Positions 2,695-20,665 of a DNA stretch of 32,000 bases are shown here, piece after piece. Both the position numbers and the translations under genes were made by a program. The notes under the pieces were generated by a model. It saw only the letters and a list, made by a program, of their open reading frames with translations, made no database searches and was not told where the DNA came from. The DNA is from Candidatus Didemnitutus sp. Its GTDB lineage: Bacteria > Verrucomicrobiota > Verrucomicrobiia > Opitutales > Opitutaceae. The stretch covers positions 1-32,000 of the forward strand of contig DASZXI010000077.1 of assembly GCA_035545955.1 (NCBI GenBank), read 5' to 3'. Position 1 is the first letter of the stretch, and every line of letters starts with the position of its first letter.

Positions 2695-3933
2695 TCACGT
2701 TCTCTTCTTCTCCACCTCCGGCAGGAATCCCGTGAGCAGGCCGATCAGCGGCAGATAGGCGCAGACCTTGAACACGAAGTTGATGCTCGTGTGATCGGCC
2801 AGCTGCCCGAGCAAGGCGGAGCCAATGCCGCCGGCACCGAACGCCAGCCCGAAAAACAGTCCGGCCACCAGTCCCACCCGACCCGGCATCAGCTCCTGCG
2901 CGTAGACGAGGATCGCGGAGAAGGCCGACGCGAGGATCAAACCCGCGCACATCGCGAGAACGATCGTGAGCGGAAGATTCACGTGCGGCAGCAGCAGCGA
3001 GAACGGCGCCACCCCGAGGATGGAAATCCAGATTACCGGTTTTCGACCGATGCGATCGCCGACCGGTCCACCGATGATCGTGCCTGCCGCCACGGCGAAC
3101 AGGAAACTGAACAGGCCGAACTGCGCCTGCGGCACGGACAGCGCAAAGCGATCCATGAGATAGAACGTGTAGTAGTTGCTCAGGCTGACGAGGTAGAAGT
3201 ACTTCGAGAAGATCAGCACGATCAGGATGAAGATCGCGAAAGCGACGCGCGCCGTCGAAAATGCCGACCTCTTGGACGCGGACGACGCCTTGCCCGCCGC
3301 GTGCGTCGCCGCGAGACGGCGGCGATACCATCCGCCCACGCGCCACAGGACAAAAATTCCCGCCGCGGCGAGCAGGGTGAAGGCCGCGATCGAATGCTGT
3401 CCGAACGGAACCACCACCAGTGCGGCCAGCGGCGGTCCGAGCGAGGAGCCGAAGTTGCCGCCAACCTGAAACAGCGACTGGGCGAAACCGTGCTTTCCGC
3501 CCGAGGCCATGCGGGCCACCCGCGAAGCCTCCGGATGGAAAATCGCCGAACCTGCGCCAACCGTCGCCGCCGAGATCAGGATCATCGGGTAACTCCACGC
3601 CTGCGAGAGCATCACCAGGCCGACCAGTGAAATCCCCATTCCGGTCGCCAATGAAAACGGCTTCGGATGGCGGTCAGTGTAGAGTCCGACGAACGGCTGC
3701 AGAATCGAGGCCGTGATCTGAAAGGTCAGGGTGATCAATCCTACCTGGGTGTAGTTCAGCCGAAAATTATCCTTCAGCACCGGATAGATCGCCGGGATCA
3801 GCGACTGGATCGTATCGTTCAGCAGATGCGAAATCGCCAGCGCCCACAGGATGCTCATCACCGTGGTGCGGGCCGCGTCGGCGGCGATCGCCTTCGCATC
3901 AACTCCGGGCTGACTGGGAACAACGGAACTCAT
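2695..3933 (-). CDS. MFS transporter (Fsr/fosmidomycin-resistance-like)
   Basis: The ORF is open to 4032, but the first ATG that precedes the first TM segment is at 3931-3933 (MSSVVPSQPG...). About 12 hydrophobic segments are visible. 'HLLNDTIQSLIPAIYPVLK' and 'GLYTDRHPKP' resemble the Fsr subfamily, as I remember it. Confidence 0.85.
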   Translation of the reverse strand: MSSVVPSQPGVDAKAIAADAARTTVMSILWALAISHLLNDTIQSLIPAIYPVLKDNFRLNYTQVGLITLTFQITASILQPFVGLYTDRHPKPFSLATGMGISLVGLVMLSQAWSYPMILISAATVGAGSAIFHPEASRVARMASGGKHGFAQSLFQVGGNFGSSLGPPLAALVVVPFGQHSIAAFTLLAAAGIFVLWRVGGWYRRRLAATHAAGKASSASKRSAFSTARVAFAIFILIVLIFSKYFYLVSLSNYYTFYLMDRFALSVPQAQFGLFSFLFAVAAGTIIGGPVGDRIGRKPVIWISILGVAPFSLLLPHVNLPLTIVLAMCAGLILASAFSAILVYAQELMPGRVGLVAGLFFGLAFGAGGIGSALLGQLADHTSINFVFKVCAYLPLIGLLTGFLPEVEKKRT

Positions 3934-4219
3934 CGCGCGCAAAGCTCGCCGCGACGGCGCGGCTGTCAAGGCACCCCAATGTGTCAACCCGTTCGGAGGT
4001 GGCACAGTGGGCCACCGGACGGTTCGCCACAATTCGCCGCCGGGATTTAAGCGACGTCATTTATTTGGCCCACGAATTTGCGCGAACAACGCACCCGTCA
4101 TCCAAATATCTTTAGATTCCGGTCAGACTCATGCCGTCGAACAAGAACTCTGGGGGGACGAGACCGCAGGGCGCAAACCACGAATCAGGGAATTCAATTC
4201 TCTCGCGGGTGAGGGGTCT

Positions 4220-4247
4220 CTCAACCCTCAACTCTCAACCCTCAACC
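4220..4247. repeat. heptanucleotide tandem repeat (CTCAACY)x4
   Basis: ctcaacc ctcaact ctcaacc ctcaacc, read directly. It begins 13 nt downstream of the chemoreceptor stop codon (4260-4262). Confidence 0.8.
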
Positions 4248-4259
4248 GCACGCATCCGC

Positions 4260-5813: not shown

Positions 5814-6150
5814 GGGATTCGTAAGTACGCGAGCAGTCCATCGACGATCCGCGCGAAAAATTCATCCGGCTCTCCGCCGCTTCCCGTCGACTTTTCCACG
5901 GCTCGCCAACGCGGGCGCCGCGTTCTCCATGAGTCTCCGACACTTAATGCCGCGGCCGCCCGTCGGAAGCCTCACGACGGCGTCCGAAAATAAATTTCGC
6001 CGAAGTCCGCAAGACGCCGGGATTTAACGCGATGTAAGCCCACCGCCTATATTCCGGATCGGGGATGCCCGCCGTCGAGCTGATCCCTTCGTCCGGCTGC
6101 AGGTTTCCGGCAGCCTTTCAGCCGTTCGCTCCTTCAGCCTTTCCCTCTGG

Positions 6151-6203
6151 TGTCCGGGCCGAGACTTGAACTCGGACGCCTTACGGCAATGGCTTCTAAA
6201 ACC
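6151..6203 (-). repeat. orphan duplicate of the 3' half of tRNA-Leu(UAG) (att-like direct repeat, distal island border)
   Basis: 6151-6203 matches 11203-11255 at 51/53 positions (mismatches at 6153 and 6200). The copy runs from the discriminator base to the anticodon loop and lacks the tRNA 5' half. Confidence 0.9.
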
Positions 6204-6383
6204 TGTATTTCCCGACGGAACGAAACCCCTCGGAGGGACACGACGGACTGAAGTGGCCCTTAGCGGTCCATAGCAGCCGCCGGAGATGGCGACGATATGG
6301 CGACGCATGAGACACGGCACACACCCCATTTCGCTATCAGCGTTGTGCCTTGAAAGCACCAGTCTACAGGACATCTTGCGCTT

Positions 6384-7226
6384 GTGGCAAAGAACTCCCA
6401 CATCGAATGGACGCATCACACGTTCAACCCTTGGTGGGGCTGCACGAAAGTCTCGCCTGCGTGCGACAATTGCTACGCTGAGTTGTGGGCGAAACGCGTC
6501 GGAGCGAAAGTGTGGGGCCACACGGCCTCACGTCGTTTCTTCGGCGATTCTCATTGGAAAGAGCCAGTGGCTTGGAATGCCGAGGCAGAGCGAAATGGAG
6601 AGCGGGCGCGAGTATTCTGCGCCAGCATGGCGGACGTGTTTGAGCGGCGGGCCGATCTTAATCCCCCTCGGGAAAGGCTGTGGAAGCTGATTGAGTCTAC
6701 GCCATGGCTCGACTGGCTGCTCCTGACCAAGCGACCGCAAAATGCGGCTAAAATGGTCCCATGGGGCAATTCGTGGCGAAAAAACGTCTGGATCGGCACT
6801 ACGGTCGAGAACCAGAAATTTGCCGAGCTTCGCTTGCCCCACTTACTAGCCCTGCCTGCCAGTGTCCGCTTTCTATCGTGCGAACCGCTGCTCGGCCCCA
6901 TTGACCTGACAAAGTGGATTGGTTCGGGGGCCGGGTTTCCGATCGACTGGGTCATCGCTGGAGGGGAGAGCGGGCCAAAAGCGCGACCGATGCATCCCGA
7001 TTGGGCTAGAGGGCTGATGCGGCAATGCCAGGCGAACGAAATCGCCTTCCATTTCAAGCAATGGGGTCACTGGGTGCCCGCCGAGATTTCCGGAGCCCCG
7101 GAGGATGCGGAAGAAATCGCATTCGACGATGCGAGGTCCGTGCGGATGACCAGATTGCCGAAAAAAGTGGCGGGCCGAATCCTTGAGGGTTTGACGTGGG
7201 ATCAAGTACCCGTTGGGGCCTCCTAG
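6384..7226 (+). CDS. DUF5131 / phage Gp37-Gp68 family protein (three-Cys-motif protein)
   Basis: 280-aa ORF with a GTG start. The N-terminus 'HIEWTHHTFNPWWGCTKVSPACDNCYA' is the family signature as I remember it. The three Cys motifs are GC..(6)..C..C (C20/C27/C30), 'VFCASMAD' (C79) and 'LSCEPLL' (C175), followed by 'WVIAGGESGP.ARP'. Confidence 0.85.
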   Translation: MAKNSHIEWTHHTFNPWWGCTKVSPACDNCYAELWAKRVGAKVWGHTASRRFFGDSHWKEPVAWNAEAERNGERARVFCASMADVFERRADLNPPRERLWKLIESTPWLDWLLLTKRPQNAAKMVPWGNSWRKNVWIGTTVENQKFAELRLPHLLALPASVRFLSCEPLLGPIDLTKWIGSGAGFPIDWVIAGGESGPKARPMHPDWARGLMRQCQANEIAFHFKQWGHWVPAEISGAPEDAEEIAFDDARSVRMTRLPKKVAGRILEGLTWDQVPVGAS

Positions 7227-8080
7227 CGGCGATATTTCTTCATTATGTGCTTCGCGATTCGCTCGCCCGTCTCGTTGTGACCGGCGAAGAAAAGATAATA
7301 CACGATCGCGCCTATTGAGTTCTTCATCGCCACTGGGTGCGGAACGAATTTAAAGCCGGCGACGGTCTTAAGCCGTTCGCGGAATGCTTCGACCAAAGTA
7401 TCGTTTCCGGTCTTTTCTGTTTCGGTCATCGCGCCACCGCCGAGATCGAACGCCATCTGCGGGCTCGGCTTGAACATCACTGCGTGCCAGTCCTCGTTGC
7501 CCCACAACCTGGTCATGCGCGCCCGGCCGTCGGGGCTGATGTCTTCCAAGCGTGCGCGTTTGGCGTTTCGATTGATGTCAGCCACCGGGAAATTGAGAAA
7601 TATTTCGATGGACCCGGATTTTCCGGCGGCCTCGAGAACCTTCCAATCAACGTGCATGCCGTAGGGGTCGATGAAGCAAAGAGCCCGCCGATACTGCTTG
7701 AATGGAAATTTTGGGAAAATCGTATCGAGCAGGATGGCATTGCAGTCGCCACTGTACACGTGGGCATTTGCGTGCCCTCGACACAGGGCTTGGAGCTGGC
7801 CGACCCGGGCATCATCGAGGTCCACGAAATGAAATTCGTCGAATCCCGGCGTTGCGAGGGCGATGGCCGGACTGCCGGGGATTTCTTCCCGGGATGACTT
7901 GTGCAAGTGTTTGCCAGCGCCAGCGAAGCCATCAATGTAGCCGGTCTTGAAAAGTCTGGCCCCGGTGTTCGTCCTTTGATTGCTGAGGATGGCGGCGTAT
8001 TCTTTGGAATAGGCCTGGAGAATGCGGAGTTTGTCTACTGACCACTGTCCAATCTCGTCGAGGCCGTCCGGGTTATTCAT
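7223..8080 (-). CDS. tcmP: three-Cys-motif partner protein TcmP (methyltransferase-fold-like)
   Basis: 285-aa ORF with ATG at 8078-8080. 'W...K...L..Y...Y', 'GYIDGFAGAG' (aa 47-56), 'GSPAIAL' and 'ALCFIDPYG' (aa 133-141) match my memory of the TIGR04474 TcmP family. It is adjacent to a DUF5131 gene, as the family definition expects. Confidence 0.8.
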   Translation of the reverse strand: MNNPDGLDEIGQWSVDKLRILQAYSKEYAAILSNQRTNTGARLFKTGYIDGFAGAGKHLHKSSREEIPGSPAIALATPGFDEFHFVDLDDARVGQLQALCRGHANAHVYSGDCNAILLDTIFPKFPFKQYRRALCFIDPYGMHVDWKVLEAAGKSGSIEIFLNFPVADINRNAKRARLEDISPDGRARMTRLWGNEDWHAVMFKPSPQMAFDLGGGAMTETEKTGNDTLVEAFRERLKTVAGFKFVPHPVAMKNSIGAIVYYLFFAGHNETGERIAKHIMKKYRR

Positions 8081-8199
8081 TCGATTTACGACGGTCTTCG
8101 CCGCTGGCCCTCAGCAAATTTCCCGTCCGCAGTTTTAAAGTGGATACGGGGTGAGCTGTCGACTTTTTCGCATTGGCCAGAAAACCCGAACACCAACTC

Positions 8200-8970
8200 T
8201 CACTGTCCCAGGAACGACCAATCCTGATCCGGGAACCTCTGTTCGAGTGACGCCCGCAATTCGGACCCCGCGGTACGGAGATCCACGGCCGCCTTCTGCG
8301 CTTCGAACAATGCCTCGGCAACCTTCTCGGCTTGATTCCTCAGGGCCTCCTCCTTCGCAGCACGTTTCTCCATGCTCTTCCCGATAACCGAAAGACTCGA
8401 CGCCACCAATCCCGGAACATTTCCCTGAACCGTGGCCGACACGATCTCAAAAAGCGGAGCCAGATCCGGTGGGCTCGCCTTTTCCTTCAATCCTTCTCGG
8501 GTGAGTTCGGCAAGTCGCCCCTCCTCGAGAAAAAGCTGCATCCGCTTCCCCATAGACGTCTGGCGAAGAGCCACTGCCTGGGCAGCTTGCGGATCAACCC
8601 CTCTTGCCCCGATGTTCCCAATCTGCCGCTGCGCCTCGCCGTATATATCGGTCAGCACGTGAAATCTCTGGGCAAGAAGGTTCCAATAAATTTCCTCCTC
8701 TAATCGGATCTCACGCATCTCCGGACCGAACGGTGCAACCGGTCGTCCCTTGGTAGTGGTCGTCGGAGCGACCGGTCTCTCGATCCGCGGGAGTACAGCG
8801 AGCTTGGCGTGCAGGTCGTGGGAGATCGAGATGTAGGTTTCGAGATACAATTTGGTTCGCGATCCGTCGTCGCGGGTGCAACAAGCCATGAAAACAAAGG
8901 CGATACAGAGCCCGCCCCAAAGCGCCCAATGCGGAACGGCCGGTTTCTTCACGACGGAGCAGCAAGCCAC
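8200..8970 (-). CDS. hypothetical lipoprotein / membrane-anchored helical protein
   Basis: 256-aa ORF with a GTG start. The N-terminus 'VKKPAVPHWALWGGLCIAFVFMAC' looks like a signal peptide with a lipobox-like FMAC. The remainder is Ala/Glu/Leu-rich, consistent with helical or coiled structure. I recognise no family. Confidence 0.6.
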   Translation of the reverse strand: MACCSVVKKPAVPHWALWGGLCIAFVFMACCTRDDGSRTKLYLETYISISHDLHAKLAVLPRIERPVAPTTTTKGRPVAPFGPEMREIRLEEEIYWNLLAQRFHVLTDIYGEAQRQIGNIGARGVDPQAAQAVALRQTSMGKRMQLFLEEGRLAELTREGLKEKASPPDLAPLFEIVSATVQGNVPGLVASSLSVIGKSMEKRAAKEEALRNQAEKVAEALFEAQKAAVDLRTAGSELRASLEQRFPDQDWSFLGQ

Positions 8971-9021
8971 GCGTTAAAGCGATCGCCCGCAACGAATGCG
9001 ATCACCAAGCAGCGACAAGAA

Positions 9022-9411
9022 TCATTCGATCGCACCGTTAGCTACCTCCCGTTCAGTCGACTGAGCGGTCGCTGGACGCACCGGAGTCTCATCGATCACG
9101 TTCCACTCAAAGACCTCGCCGTCTTTCATCCGGACGCCGTAATATCCGACGAGCGAGCTTCCGTGCCAGTCATCTGGCGCTGTTTCATCACCGCGGTGGA
9201 GGTCGACAACCCAATACCCTTTCCGCACGACAGCAACGCCGCACCAATACGCCCCAGGTCCGTTTTCGTTTGCGAGGTGCAGTCGCGAACCAGCGGCCCG
9301 GACGACTTCGCACGCCTTGTGTTCCGTGGTCACGGGACTATCGGATTTCGTCGCGGCCACGGCGAGTTGCGCCGAGAACGACAACAAAATGATGAGCGAC
9401 CGCAGCTTCAT
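9022..9411 (-). CDS. hypothetical secreted protein
   Basis: I chose the ATG at 9409-9411, which gives the signal peptide MKLRSLIILLSFSAQLAVAA. This start overlaps the upstream gene's stop as ATGA (9408-9411). Confidence 0.65.
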   Translation of the reverse strand: MKLRSLIILLSFSAQLAVAATKSDSPVTTEHKACEVVRAAGSRLHLANENGPGAYWCGVAVVRKGYWVVDLHRGDETAPDDWHGSSLVGYYGVRMKDGEVFEWNVIDETPVRPATAQSTEREVANGAIE

Positions 9412-9815
9412 GACTTCTTCCGATAAAGGTACAGCACGCCCAATTCGTCTATCTTTCCGGTCTTCTTCCATTGGGCGAACGCCTTGATCGTCCAGAGAAC
9501 CGGTGTGCCCCGAAGCACCCTTGGCACGCGCTCCGGATCGTGCAGTCCCTGCGCATCAAGGAGAATATGGTCACCAATGATTTTCACGGATCCGGTAATC
9601 GGCGGAGGCTCTGCTCCGACCACGTCTGTAAAATACGTTCGCCGGAAACTGTCCTCGTGGATTTCCACGACCTCGCCCGCGAACCAGCTGTGGGTGGGGT
9701 CCGGGACGTAAGTTCCGTCAGACACAAGCAAACCCTCGAAAGACCTGGAGCCCGATGCGGCGAGTCCGAGCAGTGATAGCGCAGCAGCCACCATAAGAAT
9801 CCGAAGTCCTCTCAT
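9408..9815 (-). CDS. hypothetical secreted protein
   Basis: I chose the ATG at 9813-9815, which gives the signal peptide MRGLRILMVAAALSLLGLAASG. The 61-aa extension in the ORF track has no support. Confidence 0.65.
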   Translation of the reverse strand: MRGLRILMVAAALSLLGLAASGSRSFEGLLVSDGTYVPDPTHSWFAGEVVEIHEDSFRRTYFTDVVGAEPPPITGSVKIIGDHILLDAQGLHDPERVPRVLRGTPVLWTIKAFAQWKKTGKIDELGVLYLYRKKS

Positions 9816-9949
9816 AATTTTTCTTTCGTCTTCGTCCCGATGAAGAGCGCGATCAAGCAAGCCGCAGCGGACGCCAGACAAATCGCCGCTGCGACCGCAT
9901 CCTTGTCCCCGATGAACAAGGCGACCACGACTACGAACGGGACAAACAA
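9812..9949 (-). CDS. candidate 45-aa two-TM micro-protein (absent from the ORF track, below its size cut-off)
   Basis: Hand translation from TTG at 9947-9949 gives (M)FVPFVVVVALFIGDKDAVAAAICLASAAACLIALFIGTKTKEKL*. That is two hydrophobic stretches separated by GDKD, with a basic tail. Its TGA overlaps the next gene's ATG as ATGA (9812-9815). An alternative GTG start lies at 9926-9928. Confidence 0.35.
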   Translation of the reverse strand: MFVPFVVVVALFIGDKDAVAAAICLASAAACLIALFIGTKTKEKL

Positions 9950-10356
9950 GGTGAGACAGATCTGGTATCAGCACCGCAAAGCACTGGATGAACTTCATTG
10001 AGGGACTTCACTGGAATTGCACGTTTCGCCCGACCAATCGCTGAAGCGACAAGCTCGCATTGGTCCATGTCAATCCAATCGGTGTGAGCGATGGTGGCCC
10101 ATTTTCGCCACGCAATACAAAGTCCAATGCATGGCCCAAGACCCGTCGTGAAGAACCGAATTGATTGAGCGCAGACTGCAAATTCGCTCTGAAATACCCG
10201 TCGAGACTTTCCCGGCGCAGGAGAAAATGGTGCGGCCGCTCTCCTCACTAATGTCCTAGACTTCCTCGCGAGCCGTTTCCATTCGAGGCTGTTCGGAGTC
10301 AATCTCCACCGCTCTGCGCTGTCCGTCATGCCGGTGAGCAATGATTTACCGTTCAC
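9931..10356 (-). CDS. hypothetical 141-aa protein
   Basis: It is the only ORF covering this interval. The GTG start overlaps the upstream stop as GTGA (10353-10356), and an alternative ATG lies at 10327-10329. GC3 is about 75% in the first 32 codons by hand count, which favours coding. No signal peptide is seen and I recognise no family. Confidence 0.45.
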   Translation of the reverse strand: MNGKSLLTGMTDSAERWRLTPNSLEWKRLARKSRTLVRRAAAPFSPAPGKSRRVFQSEFAVCAQSIRFFTTGLGPCIGLCIAWRKWATIAHTDWIDMDQCELVASAIGRAKRAIPVKSLNEVHPVLCGADTRSVSPCLSRS

Positions 10357-10865
10357 TTCGCCTTCTCGAGGAGCACCTTTTTCTGCGCTTCGAATTCGGC
10401 GTCTGTGATCAGGCCCTTCTTCCGTAGCTCATCGAGCTTTGTGATCTCGGTGTACAGGTCGAACGGTTTGGCGCTATCCTTGCCTTTGTCACCTGTGTCG
10501 ATCTTCACGTCGACGCTATCATGCCGCTCGACGACCTTGTCAAGGCGATCAACCATCGTGGTACGCTTTGCCTCTGGGTCCTCCTTGTCGACGACCCGAA
10601 ACTGGAGTTCGCAGTTGGCAAAATGTCCCGGAAACATGGGCGAGGAATGAAAGGTCAACGGGACCATAACCTTACCCTGCTTCGCGGCGAACGCGGCCGC
10701 GTCCCGGTAAACACCTGCCTTGAGGGCTGACTCGTTTCCGAAGATCCCGCCGTGATCGGTGCGAGCCAAAAGGTAGGTGTCGGGCGAGATGCTGACGATC
10801 TCGGGATTTGCGCAGGCCGAGAGGATGGCAACGACGGCTGCCAAGCCGATGATGCAGTAGTTCAT
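10353..10865 (-). CDS. lipoprotein with C-terminal SHOCT domain
   Basis: The ATG at 10863-10865 gives MNYCIIGLAAVVAILSAC, a signal peptide with lipobox ILSAC. The C-terminus 'ITKLDELRKKGLITDAEFEAQKKVLLEK' matches the SHOCT (short C-terminal domain) pattern. Confidence 0.7.
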   Translation of the reverse strand: MNYCIIGLAAVVAILSACANPEIVSISPDTYLLARTDHGGIFGNESALKAGVYRDAAAFAAKQGKVMVPLTFHSSPMFPGHFANCELQFRVVDKEDPEAKRTTMVDRLDKVVERHDSVDVKIDTGDKGKDSAKPFDLYTEITKLDELRKKGLITDAEFEAQKKVLLEKAK

Positions 10866-11202
10866 TGGTACGATCTCTCGCCGACCAGAGGCCCTTCTGG
10901 GAGCGACAGATGTCACACAATGGATTGAACCGGTGGATACGACAAGCTCGCTTGTCGGAACAATTCCGACATCGAAAAGTTATCACTTCCCTCCTCCGAT
11001 TTGCCGGAGCGGAGTCAAGGGAGCCTCGGCCCTTGGGCACGGAAGGGGCGCGGCACCCCGACCGGCCAGGCGGGGCTGGTGCCACTACTCCTCACGCATC
11101 GGCGCCGCAGACAATTGCGAGTTTGAACTGGCGACAACCGACGACGCGATTCACTTCGTCGGCGATGACCAAAGATTCCCCAACTCGTTATTCCCCAGAG
11201 AG

Positions 11203-11284
11203 TGCCCGGGCCGAGACTTGAACTCGGACGCCTTACGGCAATGGCTTCTAAGACCATCGTGTCTGCCAATTCCACCACCCGGGC
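11203..11284 (-). tRNA. tRNA-Leu (anticodon UAG), class II, CCA not encoded
   Basis: The reverse complement folds as follows: acceptor stem GCCCGGG/CCCGGGC; D arm GTG-GAATTGGCAGA-CAC; anticodon stem ATGGT/GCCAT with loop CTTAGAA; long variable arm TGCCGTAAGGCGT; T arm CCGAG-TTCAAGT-CTCGG; discriminator A. Total length is 82 nt. Confidence 0.95.
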
Positions 11285-17169: not shown

Positions 17170-17190
17170 AGTCCCGGCCCTTTGTCACCC

Positions 17191-20100
17191 ATGCCGACCC
17201 CCAGCCCGGTGCAGGTTCGTCGCGAGCCGGTCGTCCTGCCCACCTACGAGCCCCTGCCGCCGGATCGCAATCCGATGTTCCTGGAGAAGCGCGTCTATCA
17301 GGGCTCGAGCGGACGCGTCTACCCACTGCCGTGCACGGATCGCATCGCCGAACACGCGCGACCCCGCACCTGGGAAGCCGTTTTCATCGAGAACGACTAC
17401 CTGCTGGTGATGATGCTGCCCGCCCTGGGCGGCCGCATTCACCGGGCCATGGATAAAACCAACGGCTACGATTTCATCTACTACCAGCCGGTGATCAAAC
17501 CGGCGCTGGTGGGACTCGCCGGGCCCTGGGCCAGCGGCGGGATCGAGTTCAACTGGCCACAGCATCATCGCCCGTCGACTTTCATGCCGGTCGACGTCGC
17601 GGTCGAACATCACGAGGGTGGCTCCGCCACGGTCTGGCTGAGCGAACACGATCCGATGGGACGGATGAAGGGCATGCACGGGGTCCGTCTGCATCCGGAC
17701 AAATCCTATCTCGAACTCGTGGCGCGGGTCTACAATCGCACGCCCGACGTTCAGACTTTCCTTTGGTGGGCCAACGTCGCCACCCGCGTCCACGAGCAGT
17801 ATCAGTCGTTTTTTCCCGGGGATGTGACGCATGTCGCGGATCACGCCAAACGGGCCACGAGCGAATTCCCCCGCTGTCGCGGCCGGTACTATGGCATCGA
17901 CTACGGTCGCCGCCAGCGGGACGGCGTGGCCGCTGCGGAGCAACCGCGGCAGTATCGCCCCGCGCAAAAGTCGGGGCGTCAGGGAGCACCGGGCACGGGG
18001 TACGACTATCCGGCCGACGATCTCTCGTGGTACGCGAACATTCCGGTCCCCACGTCGTATATGTGCATGGGCTCGCAGGCCGATTTCGCCGGCGGCTATG
18101 ACTACCGCGCGCACGCGGGCATCGTGCAGATCGCCAATCATCACATTTCTCCCGGCAAGAAGCAGTGGACGTGGGGCAACCATGAATTCGGGTACGCCTG
18201 GGATCGCAATCTCACCGATCCGGACGAAAACGGGGAATATCGGCCGTACATCGAATTGATGGCGGGCGTCTACACCGACAATCAGCCGGATTTTTCCTTT
18301 CTTCAGCCGGGCGAAACGCGCACCTGGAGCCAGTATTGGTACCCCCTCCGCGCGATCGGCCCCGCCCAGGTCGCCACCCTCGATGCGGCCGGCAGCCTGC
18401 GGGTCAGTCGCGGCATTGCCCACATCGGAGTTGCAACGACGTCCGAGGTGAAGGACGCCGTCGTCGAGTTGCGGCAGGACGCACGTGTGATCGGCACGTG
18501 GAAGCAGACGATCGCGCCGGATCGCCCGCTGGCCTTTGAAACTCTGGTCGATGCGCACGCCGCGGCCCGTGACTTTTCCTTGGTCGTTCGGGGGGCGGAC
18601 GGGCGGAACCTCCTTTCGGTGGAGGAACGCCCGTCCGCCAATGTCCCGCCTCCCCCACCCGCCACCGAGCCGGCGGCGCCCGGCGCCGTCCGGTCCAACG
18701 ACGAGCTCTACGTGATCGGACTGCACCTCGAGCAGTACCGTCACGCCACGCGTCTGCCGGAGACCTATTGGCGCGAAGGATTGCGCCGCGACCCCGGCGA
18801 CTCGCGTTGTCATCTCGCGCTCGGCCGCTGGCATTTGCGCCGCGGCGAACTCGACGCGGCGGAAACGCATCTGCGCGCCAGCCTCGCCCGCCTCACCTCG
18901 CGCAACCCGAACCCCGCCGACGGCGAGCCCAGTTACCAGTTGGGATTGTGCCTGCAGCAGCAGGCGCTGCGCCGATCCGACGACTCGGTCCGCCTGCGGG
19001 ACGAGGCTTACGCCGCCTTCTACAAGGCGACCTGGAATCATGCCTGGCAGCCCGCGGCCTTTCATGCACTCGCCGAAATCGACGTCCAGCGTGGCGATCT
19101 GGTCGCGGCCCGGGATCACTTGAACCGGGCGTTGCGGGTCAACGCCGACAACCTTCGGGCGCGGAATCTGCTCGTGATGGTGCTTCGCGAGACCGGCTCC
19201 CTCGACGAAGCGGAGCGCCTCGTGGCGGAGTCGCTGGCGCTCGATCCCGCGGACTGGTGGTCCCGTCACCTGCGGGGCGACGCGCTGACATGCGACGATC
19301 AGATTCGGCTCGATCTGGCCGTGGACCATATTCGTGCCGGTTTGTACGAGCAGGCATTGGAAATTCTGGTCCGGCGCCCGCCCCCCGTCCCGGCGACCCG
19401 GAGGAATCGGCGCGCGCCCGGCATCGATCTTCCGAACGCATCGCTCGGCGCCAAACCGATGCTGCACTATTGCTCGGCGTGGATCTGCGCTCGTCTCCAT
19501 CGAGACGTCGACGAACGACGCCACCTCCGGATCGCCCGCCGCGCGAATCCGGACTATTGCTTTCCCGCTCGCGTTGAAGAGATCGCGTTTCTGGAGCATG
19601 CCATCGCGGCCGACGCGCAGGATGCCCGCGCCCCGTTCCTGCTCGGCAACCTGCTCTACGACCGCCGGCGCCACCGCGAGGCGATCGACTGCTGGAAACG
19701 TGCCGTCAGACTCGAGCCGGCCAACGCCGTGGCGTGGCGCAACCTCGGGATCGGTTCGTACAACATCCTCGGACAACCTCGCGCCGCACTCCACGCCTAC
19801 GAACGCGCGGTGCGCTCCGCCCCGCAGGACGCGCGGCTGCTGTTCGAACGCGACCAGCTGTGGAAGCGTCTGGGGAAATCCCCGCACCAGCGACTGCAGG
19901 TGCTGCGACGCCACGCCCGACTCGTCGAAAGGCGCGATGACCTTTCCGTGGAATTGTGCGCGCTGTACAATCAGACCGGCCGCCCGGAAAAAGCCCTCGC
20001 CCTCGTGTCCAATCGCCGGTTTCAGCCCTGGGAAGGCGGGGAAGGTTTGGCGCTCGGACAGCACGTCCGAACCCACCTCGCGCTCGGGCGCCGGTGCCTG

Positions 20101-20655
20101 AAACGCCGCGATCCGCCGGGAGCCGTCGCGCACTTCGAGGCCGCGCTCGGCGCACCCGTCAACCTTGGTGAGGCCAAGCATGTGCTCGCCAATCAAAGCG
20201 ACATCCATTTCTGGCTCGGATGCGCGCACGAGTCTCTGGGTGACAGCGTCAACGCCCGGAAGTATTGGATCATGGCGGCTGAATTTCGCGGCGACTTCCA
20301 AGGCATGAGCGTTCGTCCCTTTTCCGAGATGACGTATTATTCCGTGCTCGCCCTCCAGAATCTCGGTCGACTCAAGGAGGCGCGCGCGCTGCTGGATGGC
20401 CTTTCGCGCCACGCCGCCCGACTTGCCCGCGAGCCCGCCACAATCGATTATTTTGCCACGTCGTTGCCCACGATGCTTTTGTTCGAAGACGATCTGACCG
20501 CTCGTCAGCGCACGACCGCACTGTTCCTTCAGGCGCAGGTGCTGCTCGCCCGTCGGAAAAAGCACGCCGCCCGGAAAGTTCTCCACCAGGTTCTCCATCG
20601 CGATCCCAGTCATCCACTCGCCGGAGACCTTCTCTCCTCGACGGGAGACCGGTGA
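17191..20655 (+). CDS. DUF5107 domain + TPR-repeat protein (E. coli YphG-like), ~1150 aa
   Basis: The first ATG is at 17191 (the track starts at a TTG at 17182). The N-terminal ~400 aa ('LPTYEP...NPMF...RVYQGSSGRVYP', 'GGIEFNWPQHHRPSTF', 'KKQWTWG') match DUF5107 as I remember it. The C-terminal ~650 aa consists of TPR-like helices. Confidence 0.85.
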   Translation: MPTPSPVQVRREPVVLPTYEPLPPDRNPMFLEKRVYQGSSGRVYPLPCTDRIAEHARPRTWEAVFIENDYLLVMMLPALGGRIHRAMDKTNGYDFIYYQPVIKPALVGLAGPWASGGIEFNWPQHHRPSTFMPVDVAVEHHEGGSATVWLSEHDPMGRMKGMHGVRLHPDKSYLELVARVYNRTPDVQTFLWWANVATRVHEQYQSFFPGDVTHVADHAKRATSEFPRCRGRYYGIDYGRRQRDGVAAAEQPRQYRPAQKSGRQGAPGTGYDYPADDLSWYANIPVPTSYMCMGSQADFAGGYDYRAHAGIVQIANHHISPGKKQWTWGNHEFGYAWDRNLTDPDENGEYRPYIELMAGVYTDNQPDFSFLQPGETRTWSQYWYPLRAIGPAQVATLDAAGSLRVSRGIAHIGVATTSEVKDAVVELRQDARVIGTWKQTIAPDRPLAFETLVDAHAAARDFSLVVRGADGRNLLSVEERPSANVPPPPPATEPAAPGAVRSNDELYVIGLHLEQYRHATRLPETYWREGLRRDPGDSRCHLALGRWHLRRGELDAAETHLRASLARLTSRNPNPADGEPSYQLGLCLQQQALRRSDDSVRLRDEAYAAFYKATWNHAWQPAAFHALAEIDVQRGDLVAARDHLNRALRVNADNLRARNLLVMVLRETGSLDEAERLVAESLALDPADWWSRHLRGDALTCDDQIRLDLAVDHIRAGLYEQALEILVRRPPPVPATRRNRRAPGIDLPNASLGAKPMLHYCSAWICARLHRDVDERRHLRIARRANPDYCFPARVEEIAFLEHAIAADAQDARAPFLLGNLLYDRRRHREAIDCWKRAVRLEPANAVAWRNLGIGSYNILGQPRAALHAYERAVRSAPQDARLLFERDQLWKRLGKSPHQRLQVLRRHARLVERRDDLSVELCALYNQTGRPEKALALVSNRRFQPWEGGEGLALGQHVRTHLALGRRCLKRRDPPGAVAHFEAALGAPVNLGEAKHVLANQSDIHFWLGCAHESLGDSVNARKYWIMAAEFRGDFQGMSVRPFSEMTYYSVLALQNLGRLKEARALLDGLSRHAARLAREPATIDYFATSLPTMLLFEDDLTARQRTTALFLQAQVLLARRKKHAARKVLHQVLHRDPSHPLAGDLLSSTGDR

Positions 20656-20665
20656 ACGCTCCTCG

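What the first reader, a model, noticed from the sequence alone, without database searches (positions are those of the whole stretch)
6384..8080. DUF5131 (Gp37/Gp68, three-Cys-motif) + TcmP pair as island cargo: candidate Fe-S enzyme / methyltransferase-fold module of unknown function
Seen in sequence: the 280-aa protein has the DUF5131 signature with three Cys motifs, which are GC-x6-C-x2-C-Y-A at the N-terminus, VFCASMAD and LSCEPLL. Its neighbour has the TcmP pattern. In TcmP I can read a Rossmann motif-I-like DGFAGAG (aa 50-56) and a motif-IV-like DPYG (aa 138-141). The spacing of these two motifs recalls RsmD/N6-type SAM methyltransferases (DxFxGxG ... DPP[YF]). Established knowledge: the two families are defined as a conserved two-gene cassette found in phages and prophage-like regions. 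To my knowledge no biochemical function has been assigned. Inference: a Cys-cluster (possibly 4Fe-4S, radical-SAM-like) enzyme paired with a methyltransferase-fold partner, on a horizontally acquired tRNA island, fits a nucleic-acid modification function. That function could be self/non-self marking, anti-restriction or defence. This is the most system-like uncharacterised unit in the window.
Basis: partly seen in the sequence, partly recalled or inferred. Interest (0 to 1): 0.85.

Follow-up and report, generated by a model that had tools for sequence, protein, structure and literature searches.

The report
Radical-SAM-like enzyme plus methyltransferase-fold partner cassette
Two tail-to-tail genes on a small tRNA-Leu island encode a radical-SAM-like enzyme resembling a DNA-repair lyase and an rRNA-methyltransferase-like partner; this pairing is widespread and already catalogued as an untested phage-defence candidate, but its chemistry is still unknown.

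Summary
ORF 6384-7226 (+) is a full-length DUF5131/PF07505 protein (E 1e-85). ORF 7223-8080 (-) is a full-length TcmP/TIGR04474 protein (E 6e-59).

The pair is not new as a kind:
- DUF5131 is a listed radical-SAM subgroup with a CX6CX2C motif (RadicalSAM.org Megacluster-5-2).
- The pair matches PADLOC's untested candidates PDC-M41 and PDC-M30.

What I add:
- The TcmP model matches the 23S rRNA m6A methyltransferase RlmJ best. The SAM-pocket residues and the motif-IV Asp are conserved across the family.
- The DUF5131 model matches spore photoproduct lyase best, though weakly.
- Only C20, C27, C30 and C215 are conserved family-wide. The cysteines in "VFCASMAD" and "LSCEPLL" are specific to one clade.
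- TcmP had a radical-SAM-type neighbour in 79 of 80 genome loci (the other contig ends at the gene). This is usually DUF5131 and sometimes a canonical SplB-like PF04055 enzyme. DUF5131 is often alone in phages.
- The window's pair is reassorted from two cassette lineages and is convergent, sharing a CTAG stop overlap, as in the three phage lineages that carry both genes.
- The island (6150-11255) is bounded by a 54-nt tRNA-Leu repeat and has no integrase.

Most likely this is a two-enzyme, SAM-dependent module acting on nucleic acid. Its substrate and biological role remain unproven.

The parts
6384..7226 (+). DUF5131 (Gp37/Gp68) protein, 280 aa. Radical-SAM-superfamily member with a CX6CX2C motif (C20, C27, C30) and the universal C215, S81-M-x-D84, T115-K-R117, E142, S165-x-E167-P, G193-G-E-S-G197 and K225-Q-W-G228.
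   Evidence: PF07505 E 1e-85. PADLOC PDC-M41B 7e-58 and PDC-M30B 2e-56. AlphaFold2 pLDDT 85.2. Best PDB fold matches are spore photoproduct lyase, E 3.7e-4, TM 0.44. Conservation over 163 sequences.
7223..8080 (-). TcmP (three-Cys-motif partner protein), 285 aa. RlmJ-like class I SAM-methyltransferase fold with motif I D50-x-F-x-G54, G69-S-P71, an acidic residue at 87, motif IV D138-P-Y-G, and the N-terminal-helix K17 and Y24.
   Evidence: TIGR04474 5.9e-59. PADLOC PDC-M41A 6e-65. pLDDT 94.7. Foldseek top hits are RlmJ, E 3e-7, TM 0.5-0.56. HMM against PDB finds RlmJ at E 0.0024. hhalign against E. coli RlmJ gives 85% probability, with PGSP aligned to PGSP, D87 to E118 and D138 to D164. Conservation over 147 sequences.
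7223..7226 (.). Shared palindrome CTAG that holds both TAG stop codons, giving the convergent 4-nt overlap.
   Evidence: Sequence read. Gordonia phage BaxterFox has the same CTAG-sharing convergent layout.
6150..6203 (.). Left island border: 54-nt direct repeat, 96% identical to the 3' half of tRNA-Leu.
   Evidence: the repeat finder family D1.
11202..11284 (-). tRNA-Leu (anticodon TAG). Its 3' 54 nt (11202-11255) form the right island border repeat.
   Evidence: ARAGORN. Rfam RF00005, 54.5 bits. Repeat D1.
8200..10916 (-). Remaining island cargo: small ORFs on the same strand as tcmP (8200-8970, 9022-9471, 9408-9998, and 10353-10916 with a SHOCT domain). No integrase. No demonstrated link to the pair.
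   Evidence: ORF list. Gene calls on the matching Logan contig L001. Only SHOCT matched any library.

Best explanation
The two genes are an intact copy of the 'TcmP / three-Cys-motif protein' cassette, a horizontally mobile two-enzyme module that uses S-adenosylmethionine.

Shown:
- DUF5131 belongs to the radical-SAM superfamily. It has a CX6CX2C cluster motif, and its predicted fold matches spore photoproduct lyase best, though weakly.
- TcmP has an RlmJ-like class I methyltransferase fold. Its SAM-pocket residues and the catalytic Asp of motif IV are conserved.
- In all 79 informative genome loci (of 80 sampled) TcmP lies next to a radical-SAM-type enzyme, either DUF5131 or a canonical SplB-like PF04055 protein. 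DUF5131 frequently occurs without TcmP.

Inferred:
- The radical-SAM enzyme carries out the core step. It would reductively cleave SAM at a [4Fe-4S] cluster and abstract a hydrogen atom from a flipped-out nucleotide, most probably in DNA.
- TcmP is a dependent accessory that methylates the same or a neighbouring nucleotide, probably on an exocyclic amine, or that hands the substrate to its partner.
- The biological role is most likely in conflicts between mobile elements and hosts (defence or counter-defence by covalent nucleic-acid modification), with an SOS-linked lesion-processing role as a close second.

The window's copy is a reassorted pair. Its DUF5131 comes from the 'DUF5131->TcmP' lineage and its TcmP from the 'TcmP->radical SAM' lineage. 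The genes are joined tail to tail, as in the phage-borne versions, and sit on a decayed 5-kb tRNA-Leu island.
For: Family membership.

Radical-SAM link:
- RadicalSAM.org places DUF5131 in Megacluster-5-2 with a CX6CX2C motif, next to SPL in 5-3.
- The top six Foldseek PDB hits are all SPL.
- There are weak NCBIfam hits to 'radical SAM mobile pair protein A'.
- C20, C27, C30 and C215 are universal in 163 sequences.

Methyltransferase link:
- pLDDT 94.7.
- RlmJ is the best match by fold, by HMM and by hhalign, which aligns PGSP, D87 to E118 and D138 to D164.
- K17, D50, F52, G54, an acidic residue at 87 and D138 are conserved in at least 95% of 147 diverse TcmPs.
- In RlmJ, K18 and D164 are catalytic, and E118 and S100 bind SAM (PMC3814359).

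Obligate pairing:
- Of 80 genome loci, 70 have tcmP followed by DUF5131 on the same strand with a gap of about 18 nt, 3 are convergent, and 2 have DUF5131 upstream.
- Four loci lack DUF5131 within 10 kb. The three that were looked up carry a roughly 354-aa PF04055 radical-SAM protein with a canonical CxxxCxxC motif directly downstream. A similar-sized ORF lies at that position in all four, and the same partner appears on further contigs.
- That PF04055 protein weakly resembles the PA0069/Rv2578c SplB-like family.
- 66 of 80 loci of the window-type DUF5131 clade have a TcmP immediately downstream. The other 14 contigs end within 546 nt.

Asymmetry: 8 of 11 sampled phage lineages carry DUF5131 alone.

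Reassortment: the identities are discordant between the two genes.

Conflict context:
- The PADLOC PDC candidates come from genes embedded in known defence systems.
- In S. meliloti, TcmP SMa2243 is listed directly after Hna SMa2245 among the genes upregulated by NolR.
- L084 lies next to GmrSD, AAA_15 and Eco57I-type genes.
- DNA-methylase and ResIII families are the most frequent immediate neighbours.
- In Gordonia phages the pair sits between the integrase and the immunity repressor.

Damage context:
- A LexA-like gene lies beside 25 of 59 window-type cassettes, against 1 of 74 in the other lineage.
- SplB-like radical-SAM genes are SOS-regulated in several phyla (PMC8565304, PMC3765255).
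Against: - No substrate, product or phenotype is known for any member.
- The DUF5131-to-SPL fold match is weak (TM 0.44, rmsd about 10 A).
- PF04055 does not match DUF5131.
- hhalign between DUF5131 and the PF04055 partner is not significant (probability 1%, E 0.05).
- No PDB sequence relative of DUF5131 was found.
- TcmP's motif IV is D-P-Y-G rather than D-P-P-Y, and its Tyr is replaced (mostly by Lys) in 38% of the family.
- TcmP lacks RlmJ's helical subdomain.
- The equivalence of K17 with RlmJ K18 is inferred from position only.
- The convergent orientation in the window means separate promoters and no proof of co-expression. No promoter or terminator signal exceeded chance.
- Enrichment of defence genes among neighbours is modest, about 5-7% of 142 immediate neighbours; most neighbours are housekeeping genes.
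- There is no LexA-like gene in the window.
Confidence: 0.55

Rival explanations
1. SOS-type DNA repair module. The SPL-like radical-SAM enzyme directly reverses a DNA lesion, such as a pyrimidine photoproduct or an alkylated or cross-linked base. TcmP recognises and flips the lesion, or processes it by methyl transfer. The cassette serves DNA-damage tolerance rather than phage conflict.
For: - The best fold matches of DUF5131 are spore photoproduct lyase, followed by the UV-damage endonuclease UVDE.
- The alternative TcmP partner resembles the PA0069/Rv2578c SplB-like family (COG1533).
- SplB genes are members of the SOS regulon in several phyla (PMC8565304, PMC3765255).
- A LexA-like gene (PF01726 + Peptidase_S24) lies within 1.5 kb of 25 of 59 window-type DUF5131 cassettes. 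It is divergently transcribed beside the two closest relatives looked up (P0122 75%, P0129 72% identical).
- In phages, solo DUF5131 sits among RecT, DNA-methylase, HNH and ligase genes.
Against: - There is no LexA-like gene in the window or in the TcmP->DUF5131 lineage (1 of 74).
- LexA/CI-like S24 repressors also control prophages and defence genes, so the link is ambiguous.
- Lesion reversal does not need a methyltransferase with a conserved catalytic Asp and SAM pocket.
- The cassette is patchy and mobile. It sits with toxin-antitoxin genes, Bro-N/GIY-YIG genes and restriction-modification genes.
- It is embedded in defence systems.
Confidence: 0.22
2. A restriction-modification-like addiction or defence pair. 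TcmP methylates host DNA to protect it. The radical-SAM enzyme is the effector that damages unmodified (phage) DNA by radical chemistry.
For: - It is a strict two-gene unit that moves between genomes and phyla.
- The gene orders and orientations vary (tandem both ways, and convergent), and partners are exchanged, as with restriction and methylase genes.
- It is embedded in or next to restriction-modification, BREX and Hna-type loci.
- Prophages carry it in the immunity region.
- HTH or LexA-like regulators are attached to some cassettes.
Against: - The pattern of orphan genes is the reverse of restriction-modification systems. The putative 'toxin' DUF5131 is often alone (8 of 11 sampled phage lineages; 175 phage records against 9 with TcmP).
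- The putative 'antidote' TcmP had a partner in every sampled locus with enough sequence (79 of 80).
- PDC-M41 and PDC-M30 are untested.
- No nuclease-like or other effector domain is present.
Confidence: 0.1
3. RNA-directed module. Like its closest solved relative RlmJ, TcmP methylates rRNA or tRNA. DUF5131 makes a radical-SAM modification on the same RNA, in the manner of RlmN/Cfr. The effect would be to alter translation, for example resistance to an antibiotic, a toxin or an anticodon nuclease.
For: - RlmJ, an rRNA m6A methyltransferase, is the best structural and sequence relative of TcmP. Trm1 and RsmD are also among the hits.
- NCBI's pipeline named one TcmP 'RlmJ'.
- Many radical-SAM enzymes act on RNA (general knowledge).
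Against: - TcmP lacks RlmJ's helical subdomain, which in my recollection of the RlmJ structural work contributes to RNA binding.
- The nearest structural relative of DUF5131 is a DNA enzyme, SPL.
- The genomic contexts are DNA-centred: DNA methylases, ResIII, RecT, LexA.
- RlmJ's catalytic site is itself like those of DNA m6A methyltransferases (PMC3814359), so the fold does not discriminate between RNA and DNA.
Confidence: 0.08
4. The two genes in this window are adjacent by accident. They are two leftovers from different cassettes on a decaying island and do not work together.
For: - They are convergent, so not an operon.
- Each gene's closest relatives have a different partner: the window's DUF5131 clade pairs with TcmPs only 19-39% identical to the window's, and the window's TcmP clade pairs with a 33%-identical DUF5131 or a PF04055 enzyme.
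- The island has lost its integrase.
Against: - Both ORFs are full length and keep every universally conserved residue.
- TcmP had a radical-SAM-type neighbour in every informative locus, and this DUF5131 clade always had a TcmP when sequence was available, so chance adjacency of two orphans is unlikely.
- The same convergent, 3'-overlapping layout occurs in three unrelated phage lineages, one of them with the identical CTAG overlap.
- It also occurs in three other genomes, L011, L034 and L055.
Confidence: 0.05

Closest known systems
TcmP / three-Cys-motif protein pair (NCBIfam TIGR04474 + Pfam PF07505), listed in PADLOC-DB v2 as phage defence candidates PDC-M41 and PDC-M30
   Same: Both proteins pass the family models with full-length matches. 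The genes are adjacent. All family-wide conserved residues are present.
   Different: - The usual layouts are same-strand: tcmP->DUF5131 with a gap of about 18 nt, or DUF5131->tcmP. Here the genes are convergent and share a CTAG stop overlap.
- The two genes derive from different cassette lineages.
- The family has no tested function. The PDC systems are explicitly untested.
Spore photoproduct lyase (SplB/SPL) and the SplB-like COG1533 radical-SAM proteins (PA0069/Rv2578c families)
   Same: - SPL is the best solved-structure match of the DUF5131 model.
- DUF5131 and SPL are in the same RadicalSAM.org megacluster.
- DUF5131 has an N-terminal three-Cys cluster motif followed by a beta/alpha barrel.
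- An SplB-like PF04055 protein replaces DUF5131 as TcmP's partner in the clade closest to the window's TcmP.
- Related cassettes show linkage to LexA and the SOS response.
   Different: - The motif is CX6CX2C instead of CX3CX2C.
- There is no PF04055 HMM match.
- TM-score is only 0.44.
- Profile-profile similarity to the PF04055 partner is not significant.
- DUF5131 is shorter, 280 against about 340 aa.
- Equivalents of SPL's catalytic Cys and Tyr residues were not established.
RlmJ (E. coli 23S rRNA m6A2030 methyltransferase; DUF519 family)
   Same: - RlmJ is the best fold match (E 3e-7, TM up to 0.56) and the only significant PDB sequence match.
- The shared features are motif I (D-x-x-A-G-x-G), the P-G-S-P SAM-contact loop, the motif II acidic residue, the motif IV Asp, and a conserved Lys in the N-terminal helix.
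   Different: - Identity is about 12%, and no Pfam match was found.
- TcmP lacks the inserted helical subdomain, with 11 residues between motif I and PGSP.
- Motif IV is DPYG rather than DPPY, and the Tyr is variable.
- RlmJ's Y4 and H6 have no demonstrated equivalents.
- RlmJ works alone, whereas TcmP was found with a radical-SAM partner in every informative locus.
'Radical SAM mobile pair' proteins A and B (NCBIfam TIGR04471 / TIGR04470)
   Same: DUF5131 proteins match pair protein A weakly (1e-7 to 2e-11). The PF04055 partner of TcmP matches pair protein B weakly (9e-11). This suggests a wider set of mobile two-gene combinations drawn from the same enzyme classes.
   Different: The scores are far below the curated cut-offs (31.7 against 355 bits; 41.6 against 410 bits), so the window's proteins are not members. 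That pair was not examined here.

Membership tests
Pfam PF07505 DUF5131 (phage Gp37/Gp68) | Full-length HMM match above the gathering score | tested here: met
   287.6 bits against 28.9; residues 4-276 cover model positions 1-243 of 243.
Pfam PF07505 DUF5131 (phage Gp37/Gp68) | N-terminal CX6CX2C motif and the family-wide invariant residues | tested here: met
   C20, C27, C30, C215 and all other positions at least 95% conserved in 163 sequences are present. RadicalSAM.org gives the CX6CX2C motif for this subgroup.
Radical SAM superfamily | Three-Cys motif able to bind the SAM-binding [4Fe-4S] cluster | tested here: met
   CX6CX2C is universal and is an accepted variant of the motif (PMC9477430). 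Cluster binding itself cannot be tested here.
Radical SAM superfamily | Partial (beta/alpha)6 TIM-barrel fold similar to solved radical-SAM enzymes | tested here: inconclusive
   The model has six beta-alpha units, and its top six PDB matches are SPL. However, E is 3.7e-4, TM 0.44 and rmsd about 10 A, and generic TIM barrels follow in the list.
Radical SAM superfamily | Match to the PF04055 Radical_SAM model, or significant profile similarity to a PF04055 protein | tested here: not met
   No PF04055 hit at E <= 0.01. hhalign against the PF04055 partner family gives probability 1%, E 0.05.
Radical SAM superfamily | Reductive cleavage of SAM to a 5'-deoxyadenosyl radical | not testable with these tools
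   Requires anaerobic biochemistry.
NCBIfam TIGR04474 TcmP | HMM match above the curated cut-off | tested here: met
   200.1 bits against 53; residues 12-283 cover model positions 1-262 of 263.
NCBIfam TIGR04474 TcmP | Adjacent to a three-Cys-motif (PF07505) protein | tested here: met
   The genes abut and overlap by 4 nt, but in convergent orientation. In 75 of 80 other genome loci a DUF5131 gene is adjacent to tcmP.
RlmJ / DUF519 rRNA m6A methyltransferase family | Class I methyltransferase fold with conserved motif I, motif II acidic residue and motif IV Asp | tested here: met
RlmJ / DUF519 rRNA m6A methyltransferase family | Inserted helical subdomain between motif I and the PGSP loop | tested here: not met
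   TcmP has 11 residues there, where RlmJ has about 50.
RlmJ / DUF519 rRNA m6A methyltransferase family | Canonical DPPY motif IV and the motif X residues Y4, H6 and K18 | tested here: inconclusive
   D138 is universal, but the motif is DPYG and the Tyr is only 62% conserved. K17 is universal, but its equivalence to K18 rests on position only. No equivalents of Y4 or H6 were shown.
PADLOC candidate system PDC-M41 (A + B) | Both component HMMs match neighbouring genes | tested here: met
   PDC-M41A 6.1e-65 and PDC-M41B 7.1e-58. PADLOC's own synteny rule was not run.
PADLOC candidate system PDC-M41 (A + B) | Protection against phage | not testable with these tools
   The PDC systems are described as untested candidates (bioRxiv 10.1101/2024.01.29.577857). 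No later test of M41 or M30 was found.
tRNA-integrated genomic island | Direct repeat of the tRNA 3' end at the far border, and deviant base composition | tested here: met
   54-nt repeat, 96% identical. GC 0.56-0.60 against 0.64-0.68.
tRNA-integrated genomic island | Integrase gene inside the island | tested here: not met
   No integrase-like ORF or family hit between 6204 and 11201.

The most novel reading that the evidence does not exclude
The TcmP/radical-SAM cassettes encode an undescribed two-step nucleic-acid chemistry. An SPL-like radical-SAM enzyme and an RlmJ-like methyltransferase would together install or remove a covalent DNA modification. That modification would serve either as a new kind of immune or counter-immune mark, or as an SOS-controlled lesion-repair pathway distinct from SPL. 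The interchangeability of DUF5131 and canonical SplB-like partners would then show that one conserved reaction is carried by two very divergent radical-SAM scaffolds.
Probability: 0.3. Interest if true: 0.8.

Novelty: new member of a known kind. Interest (0 to 1): 0.55.

Why it matters
The TcmP family has about 6,000 cluster representatives at 50% identity in a library of 1.84 billion proteins. DUF5131 has at least 8,000 close relatives and occurs in 175 phage genome records. Neither has a known reaction.

This analysis narrows the question. It points to:
- a radical-SAM core enzyme resembling a DNA-lesion lyase;
- a dependent partner like an amino-methyltransferase, with a short, specific list of residues to mutate;
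- two alternative radical-SAM partners for comparative biochemistry;
- a subset of cassettes linked to a LexA-like gene, which suggests a testable inducing condition.

If the pair makes or removes a DNA modification, it would add a new enzyme class to phage-host conflict or to the SOS response. If it does neither, a PADLOC candidate can be retired.

Tried and rejected
- **Literature.** Searches for DUF5131, TcmP, PF07505, TIGR04474, PDC-M41/M30, Gp37/Gp68 and COG4422 found no functional study.
- **PDB sequence searches.** Two DUF5131 profiles gave only chance hits.
- **Profile-profile comparison.** hhalign of DUF5131 against the PF04055 partner family was not significant. Their relationship therefore rests on fold, motif and classification, not on my own sequence statistics.
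- **BFVD fold search.** TcmP matched only generic viral methyltransferases.
- **Promoter and terminator scan.** Counts across the island were at chance level.
- **Rfam.** Only the tRNA was found.
- **'Three separate Cys motifs' as a family signature.** Rejected, because C79 and C166 are clade-specific.
- **RsmD as closest relative.** Rejected in favour of RlmJ.
- **Toxin/antidote (restriction-modification-like) model.** Downgraded, because DUF5131 is often alone whereas TcmP had a partner wherever sequence allowed.
- **Chance adjacency.** Considered because of the convergent, reassorted arrangement. Judged unlikely because the same layout recurs in phages and other genomes.

Full report
**1. 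What is in the sequence**

The window carries two convergent ORFs:
- 6384-7226 (+), 280 aa, GTG start.
- 7223-8080 (-), 285 aa, ATG start.

Their TAG stop codons lie inside one shared palindrome, CTAG, at 7223-7226.

The first protein matches Pfam PF07505 (DUF5131, phage Gp37/Gp68) end to end (E 1e-85, 287.6 bits against a cut-off of 28.9). It also matches phrog_2045.

Identical proteins in public data are named as coming from a 'Candidatus Didemnitutus sp.' metagenome-assembled genome (Opitutaceae, Verrucomicrobiota).

**2. The island**

tRNA-Leu lies at 11202-11284 (-). Its 3' 54 nt are repeated at 96% identity at 6150-6203. GC is 0.56-0.60 between the repeats and 0.64-0.68 outside.

The roughly 5-kb segment holds the pair, several small ORFs without family matches, and a SHOCT-domain protein. 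It holds no integrase. The flanking genes are ordinary chromosomal genes: a chemoreceptor, an MFS transporter, an FG-GAP protein and phosphatidylserine decarboxylase.

**3. What is already known**

- RadicalSAM.org, following SFLD, lists DUF5131 as a subgroup of the radical-SAM superfamily. It is Megacluster-5-2, beside spore photoproduct lyase (5-3) and MJ0683-like proteins (5-1). The resource states that this subgroup has a CX6CX2C motif (PMC9477430).
- PADLOC-DB has models for both proteins. PDC-M41A matches TcmP at 6e-65. PDC-M41B and PDC-M30B match DUF5131 at 7e-58 and 2e-56.
- The PDC systems are 145 untested candidates found as genes embedded in BREX, DISARM, type I restriction-modification or Hma loci (bioRxiv 10.1101/2024.01.29.577857).
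- I found no test of M41 or M30 and no biochemical paper.
- In Sinorhizobium meliloti, a TcmP gene (SMa2243) is listed directly after the Hna defence helicase gene (SMa2245) in a table of genes upregulated by NolR (PMC12445080).

**4. TcmP**

The AlphaFold2 model is confident (pLDDT 94.7). Its best PDB matches are E. coli RlmJ, the 23S rRNA m6A2030 methyltransferase, and the DUF519 protein 2oo3 (E about 3e-7, TM 0.5-0.56). Trm1, NTMT1 and RsmD rank lower.

A TcmP profile finds RlmJ as the only significant PDB sequence relative (E 0.0024). hhalign against E. coli RlmJ gives 85% probability. It aligns P-G-S-P with P-G-S-P (RlmJ S100), D87 with E118, and D138 with D164.

In RlmJ, E118 and S100 bind SAM, and K18 and D164 are essential for catalysis (PMC3814359).

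In 147 diverse TcmPs, K17, Y24, F52, G54 and D138 are at least 95% conserved, D50 is 94.6% conserved, and position 87 is acidic in 97%. P139 is 85% conserved and Y140 only 62%.

TcmP lacks RlmJ's helical subdomain.

Conclusion: TcmP is a distant, probably catalytically competent relative of RlmJ-type amino-methyltransferases. It is not a member of the RlmJ family. The fold does not say whether the target is DNA or RNA.

**5. DUF5131**

The model is fairly confident (pLDDT 85.2) and shows six beta-alpha units after the N-terminal Cys loop. Its top six PDB matches are all spore photoproduct lyase (E 3.7e-4 to 2.8e-3, TM 0.44). UV-damage endonuclease and generic TIM barrels follow. This agrees with the RadicalSAM.org placement, but it is weak evidence on its own.

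In 163 diverse DUF5131 proteins, C20, C27, C30 and C215 are universal. So are several polar clusters: S81/D84, T115-K-R117, E142, S165/E167, G193-G-E-S-G197 and K225-Q-W-G228. C79 and C166 are conserved only in the window's clade and are V/L/I/F elsewhere. The 'three Cys motifs' reading is therefore not a property of the family.

**6. Pairing rules**

A scan of one genome per species with the TcmP profile gave 80 loci from many phyla. Their arrangement was as follows:
- 70 loci: tcmP followed by DUF5131 on the same strand, with a gap of about 18 nt.
- 3 loci: convergent pair.
- 2 loci: DUF5131 upstream on the same strand.
- 1 locus: the contig ends at the gene.
- 4 loci: no DUF5131 within 10 kb. 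These are all Opitutia and are the window TcmP's closest genomic relatives (51-59% identical).

The three of those four that I looked up have a roughly 354-aa PF04055 radical-SAM protein directly downstream of tcmP. A similar-sized ORF lies at that position in all four, and further contigs show the same partner. This protein has a canonical GCGHACRFCY motif. It weakly resembles the PA0069/Rv2578c SplB-like families and 'radical SAM mobile pair protein B'.

Two even closer TcmP relatives (59-62% identical) are preceded by a 264-aa DUF5131 that is only 33% identical to the window's.

I then scanned metagenome contigs with the window's DUF5131, which gave 80 loci at 62-69% identity. In 66 of them a TcmP-family gene of about 300-400 aa lies immediately downstream on the same strand. 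The other 14 contigs end within 546 nt. Four of these downstream proteins were scanned against NCBIfam and all pass the TIGR04474 cut-off. PADLOC calls the two long ones scanned PDC-M30A and the shorter ones PDC-M41A.

So TcmP had a radical-SAM-type neighbour in every sampled locus with enough sequence, and that neighbour can be either of two very different scaffolds.

**7. The window's pair is reassorted**

- Its DUF5131 is 62-72% identical to those of the 'DUF5131->TcmP' lineage, whose TcmPs are only 19-39% identical to the window's TcmP.
- Its TcmP is 59-62% and 51-58% identical to TcmPs whose partners are a 33%-identical DUF5131 or a PF04055 enzyme.

Chance adjacency of two orphans is unlikely, because the same convergent, 3'-overlapping layout recurs elsewhere:
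- Gordonia phage BaxterFox has a 4-nt overlap, again CTAG.
- Gordonia phage Jablanski has an 11-nt overlap.
- Synechococcus phage Ssp-JY39 has a 46-nt overlap.
- Three other genomes show a convergent pair with a gap.

**8. Asymmetry**

DUF5131 occurs in 175 phage records. TcmP-like genes were found in only 9 records. In 8 of 11 sampled phage lineages, DUF5131 has no TcmP within 2.5 kb and sits among early or replication genes such as RecT, DNA methylase, HNH and ligase.

TcmP thus appears to depend on a radical-SAM partner, but not the reverse. This favours a model with a core radical-SAM enzyme and an accessory methyltransferase. It argues against a toxin/antidote (restriction-modification-like) logic, in which orphan methylases rather than orphan effectors are expected.

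**9. Context**

I scanned 142 immediate neighbours of TcmP cassettes. The most frequent families were DNA methylase N6_N4_Mtase (5), ResIII (3), HsdM (2), phage integrase (2) and Peptidase_M78 with HTH (2). The rest were housekeeping genes. PADLOC gave five type III methyltransferase matches. The association with restriction-modification genes is therefore modest, not a strong defence-island signal.

Other context points:
- One locus lies next to GmrSD, AAA_15 and an Eco57I-type enzyme.
- Two lie beside Bro-N/GIY-YIG/HTH genes or HicAB/RelB genes.
- In the Gordonia phages the pair sits between the integrase and the immunity repressor. From my own knowledge, this is the region where actinophage prophages carry defence genes.
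- A LexA-like gene (PF01726 + Peptidase_S24) lies within 1.5 kb of 25 of 59 window-type DUF5131 cassettes, against 1 of 74 in the other lineage. It is divergent from the gene in the two closest relatives looked up.
- SplB-like radical-SAM genes are recognised SOS regulon members (PMC8565304, PMC3765255).
- The window itself has no such regulator.

**10. Interpretation**

Shown: family membership, the folds, the conserved catalytic-type residues, the consistent pairing with interchangeable radical-SAM partners, the reassortment, and the island borders.

Inferred: the pair acts on nucleic acid, probably DNA. The radical-SAM enzyme does the core step and TcmP adds a methyl transfer or presents the substrate. 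The role lies in conflict between mobile elements and hosts, or in processing of DNA damage.

I put about 0.55 on this general mechanism, 0.22 on a specifically SOS-repair role, and smaller weights on the restriction-modification-like, RNA-directed and chance-adjacency readings.

**11. Novelty and score**

The kind is known and catalogued, but its function is unknown. The window adds a new member in a rare layout, and the comparative work yields testable rules. A specialist would not be greatly surprised, but the open question of what DUF5131 and TcmP do becomes more tractable.

Noticed in passing
window 6150-6203 and 11202-11255: A 54-nt direct repeat (96% identical) equal to the 3' half of tRNA-Leu delimits a roughly 5-kb, low-GC island that has no integrase. 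It is probably a decayed integrative element.
   Followed up: partly
window 8200-10916 (-): The island's other ORFs (8200-8970, 9022-9471, 9408-9998, 10353-10916) are on the same strand as tcmP. They have no family match except a C-terminal SHOCT domain in the last one. At least one, the 9022-9471 product, contains an apparent signal peptide.
   Followed up: partly
L174 (Gordonia phage BaxterFox NC_031226) 3237-4250 (+): A clear DUF5131 ORF (HMM E 9e-112) is not annotated in GenBank. Two small minus-strand CDSs (gp40, gp41) are annotated across it instead. This is a probable misannotation.
   Followed up: partly
L176 (prophiGD53-3 gp21); P0018: Misleading names exist in public records. A DUF5131 protein is annotated 'RNA methyltransferase', and a TcmP is named '23S rRNA (adenine(2030)-N(6))-methyltransferase RlmJ'.
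   Followed up: partly
L088-L160 (25 loci), L171 5096-5713, L179 131-748: A LexA-like repressor gene (LexA_DNA_bind + Peptidase_S24) lies next to window-type DUF5131->TcmP cassettes in 25 of 59 loci with room upstream. All 25 tblastn hits are on the cassette's strand. In the two closest relatives looked up (L171, L179) the gene is divergent. It is almost absent from the TcmP->DUF5131 lineage (1 of 74).
   Followed up: partly
L082-L086, L182 (genes directly downstream of tcmP): In Opitutia, TcmP's partner is a roughly 354-aa canonical PF04055 radical-SAM protein (motif GCGHACRFCY) that is very conserved (73-89% identical among six). It is weakly related to the PA0069/Rv2578c SplB-like proteins.
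   Followed up: partly
NCBIfam hits of window 6384-7226 and L086 7874-8938: DUF5131 weakly matches 'radical SAM mobile pair protein A' (TIGR04471). The PF04055 partner weakly matches 'pair protein B' (TIGR04470). This hints at a third pairing among the same enzyme classes.
   Followed up: no
L084 8986-14885: One TcmP-radical-SAM pair lies directly beside GmrSD_N, AAA_15 and Eco57I/N6_Mtase genes, which form a defence island.
   Followed up: no
window 17185-20709 (-) and 17182-20655 (+): Two ORFs of about 1,160-1,170 aa overlap almost completely on opposite strands. The minus-strand product has no Pfam match at E <= 1e-4. I did not determine which strand is coding.
   Followed up: no
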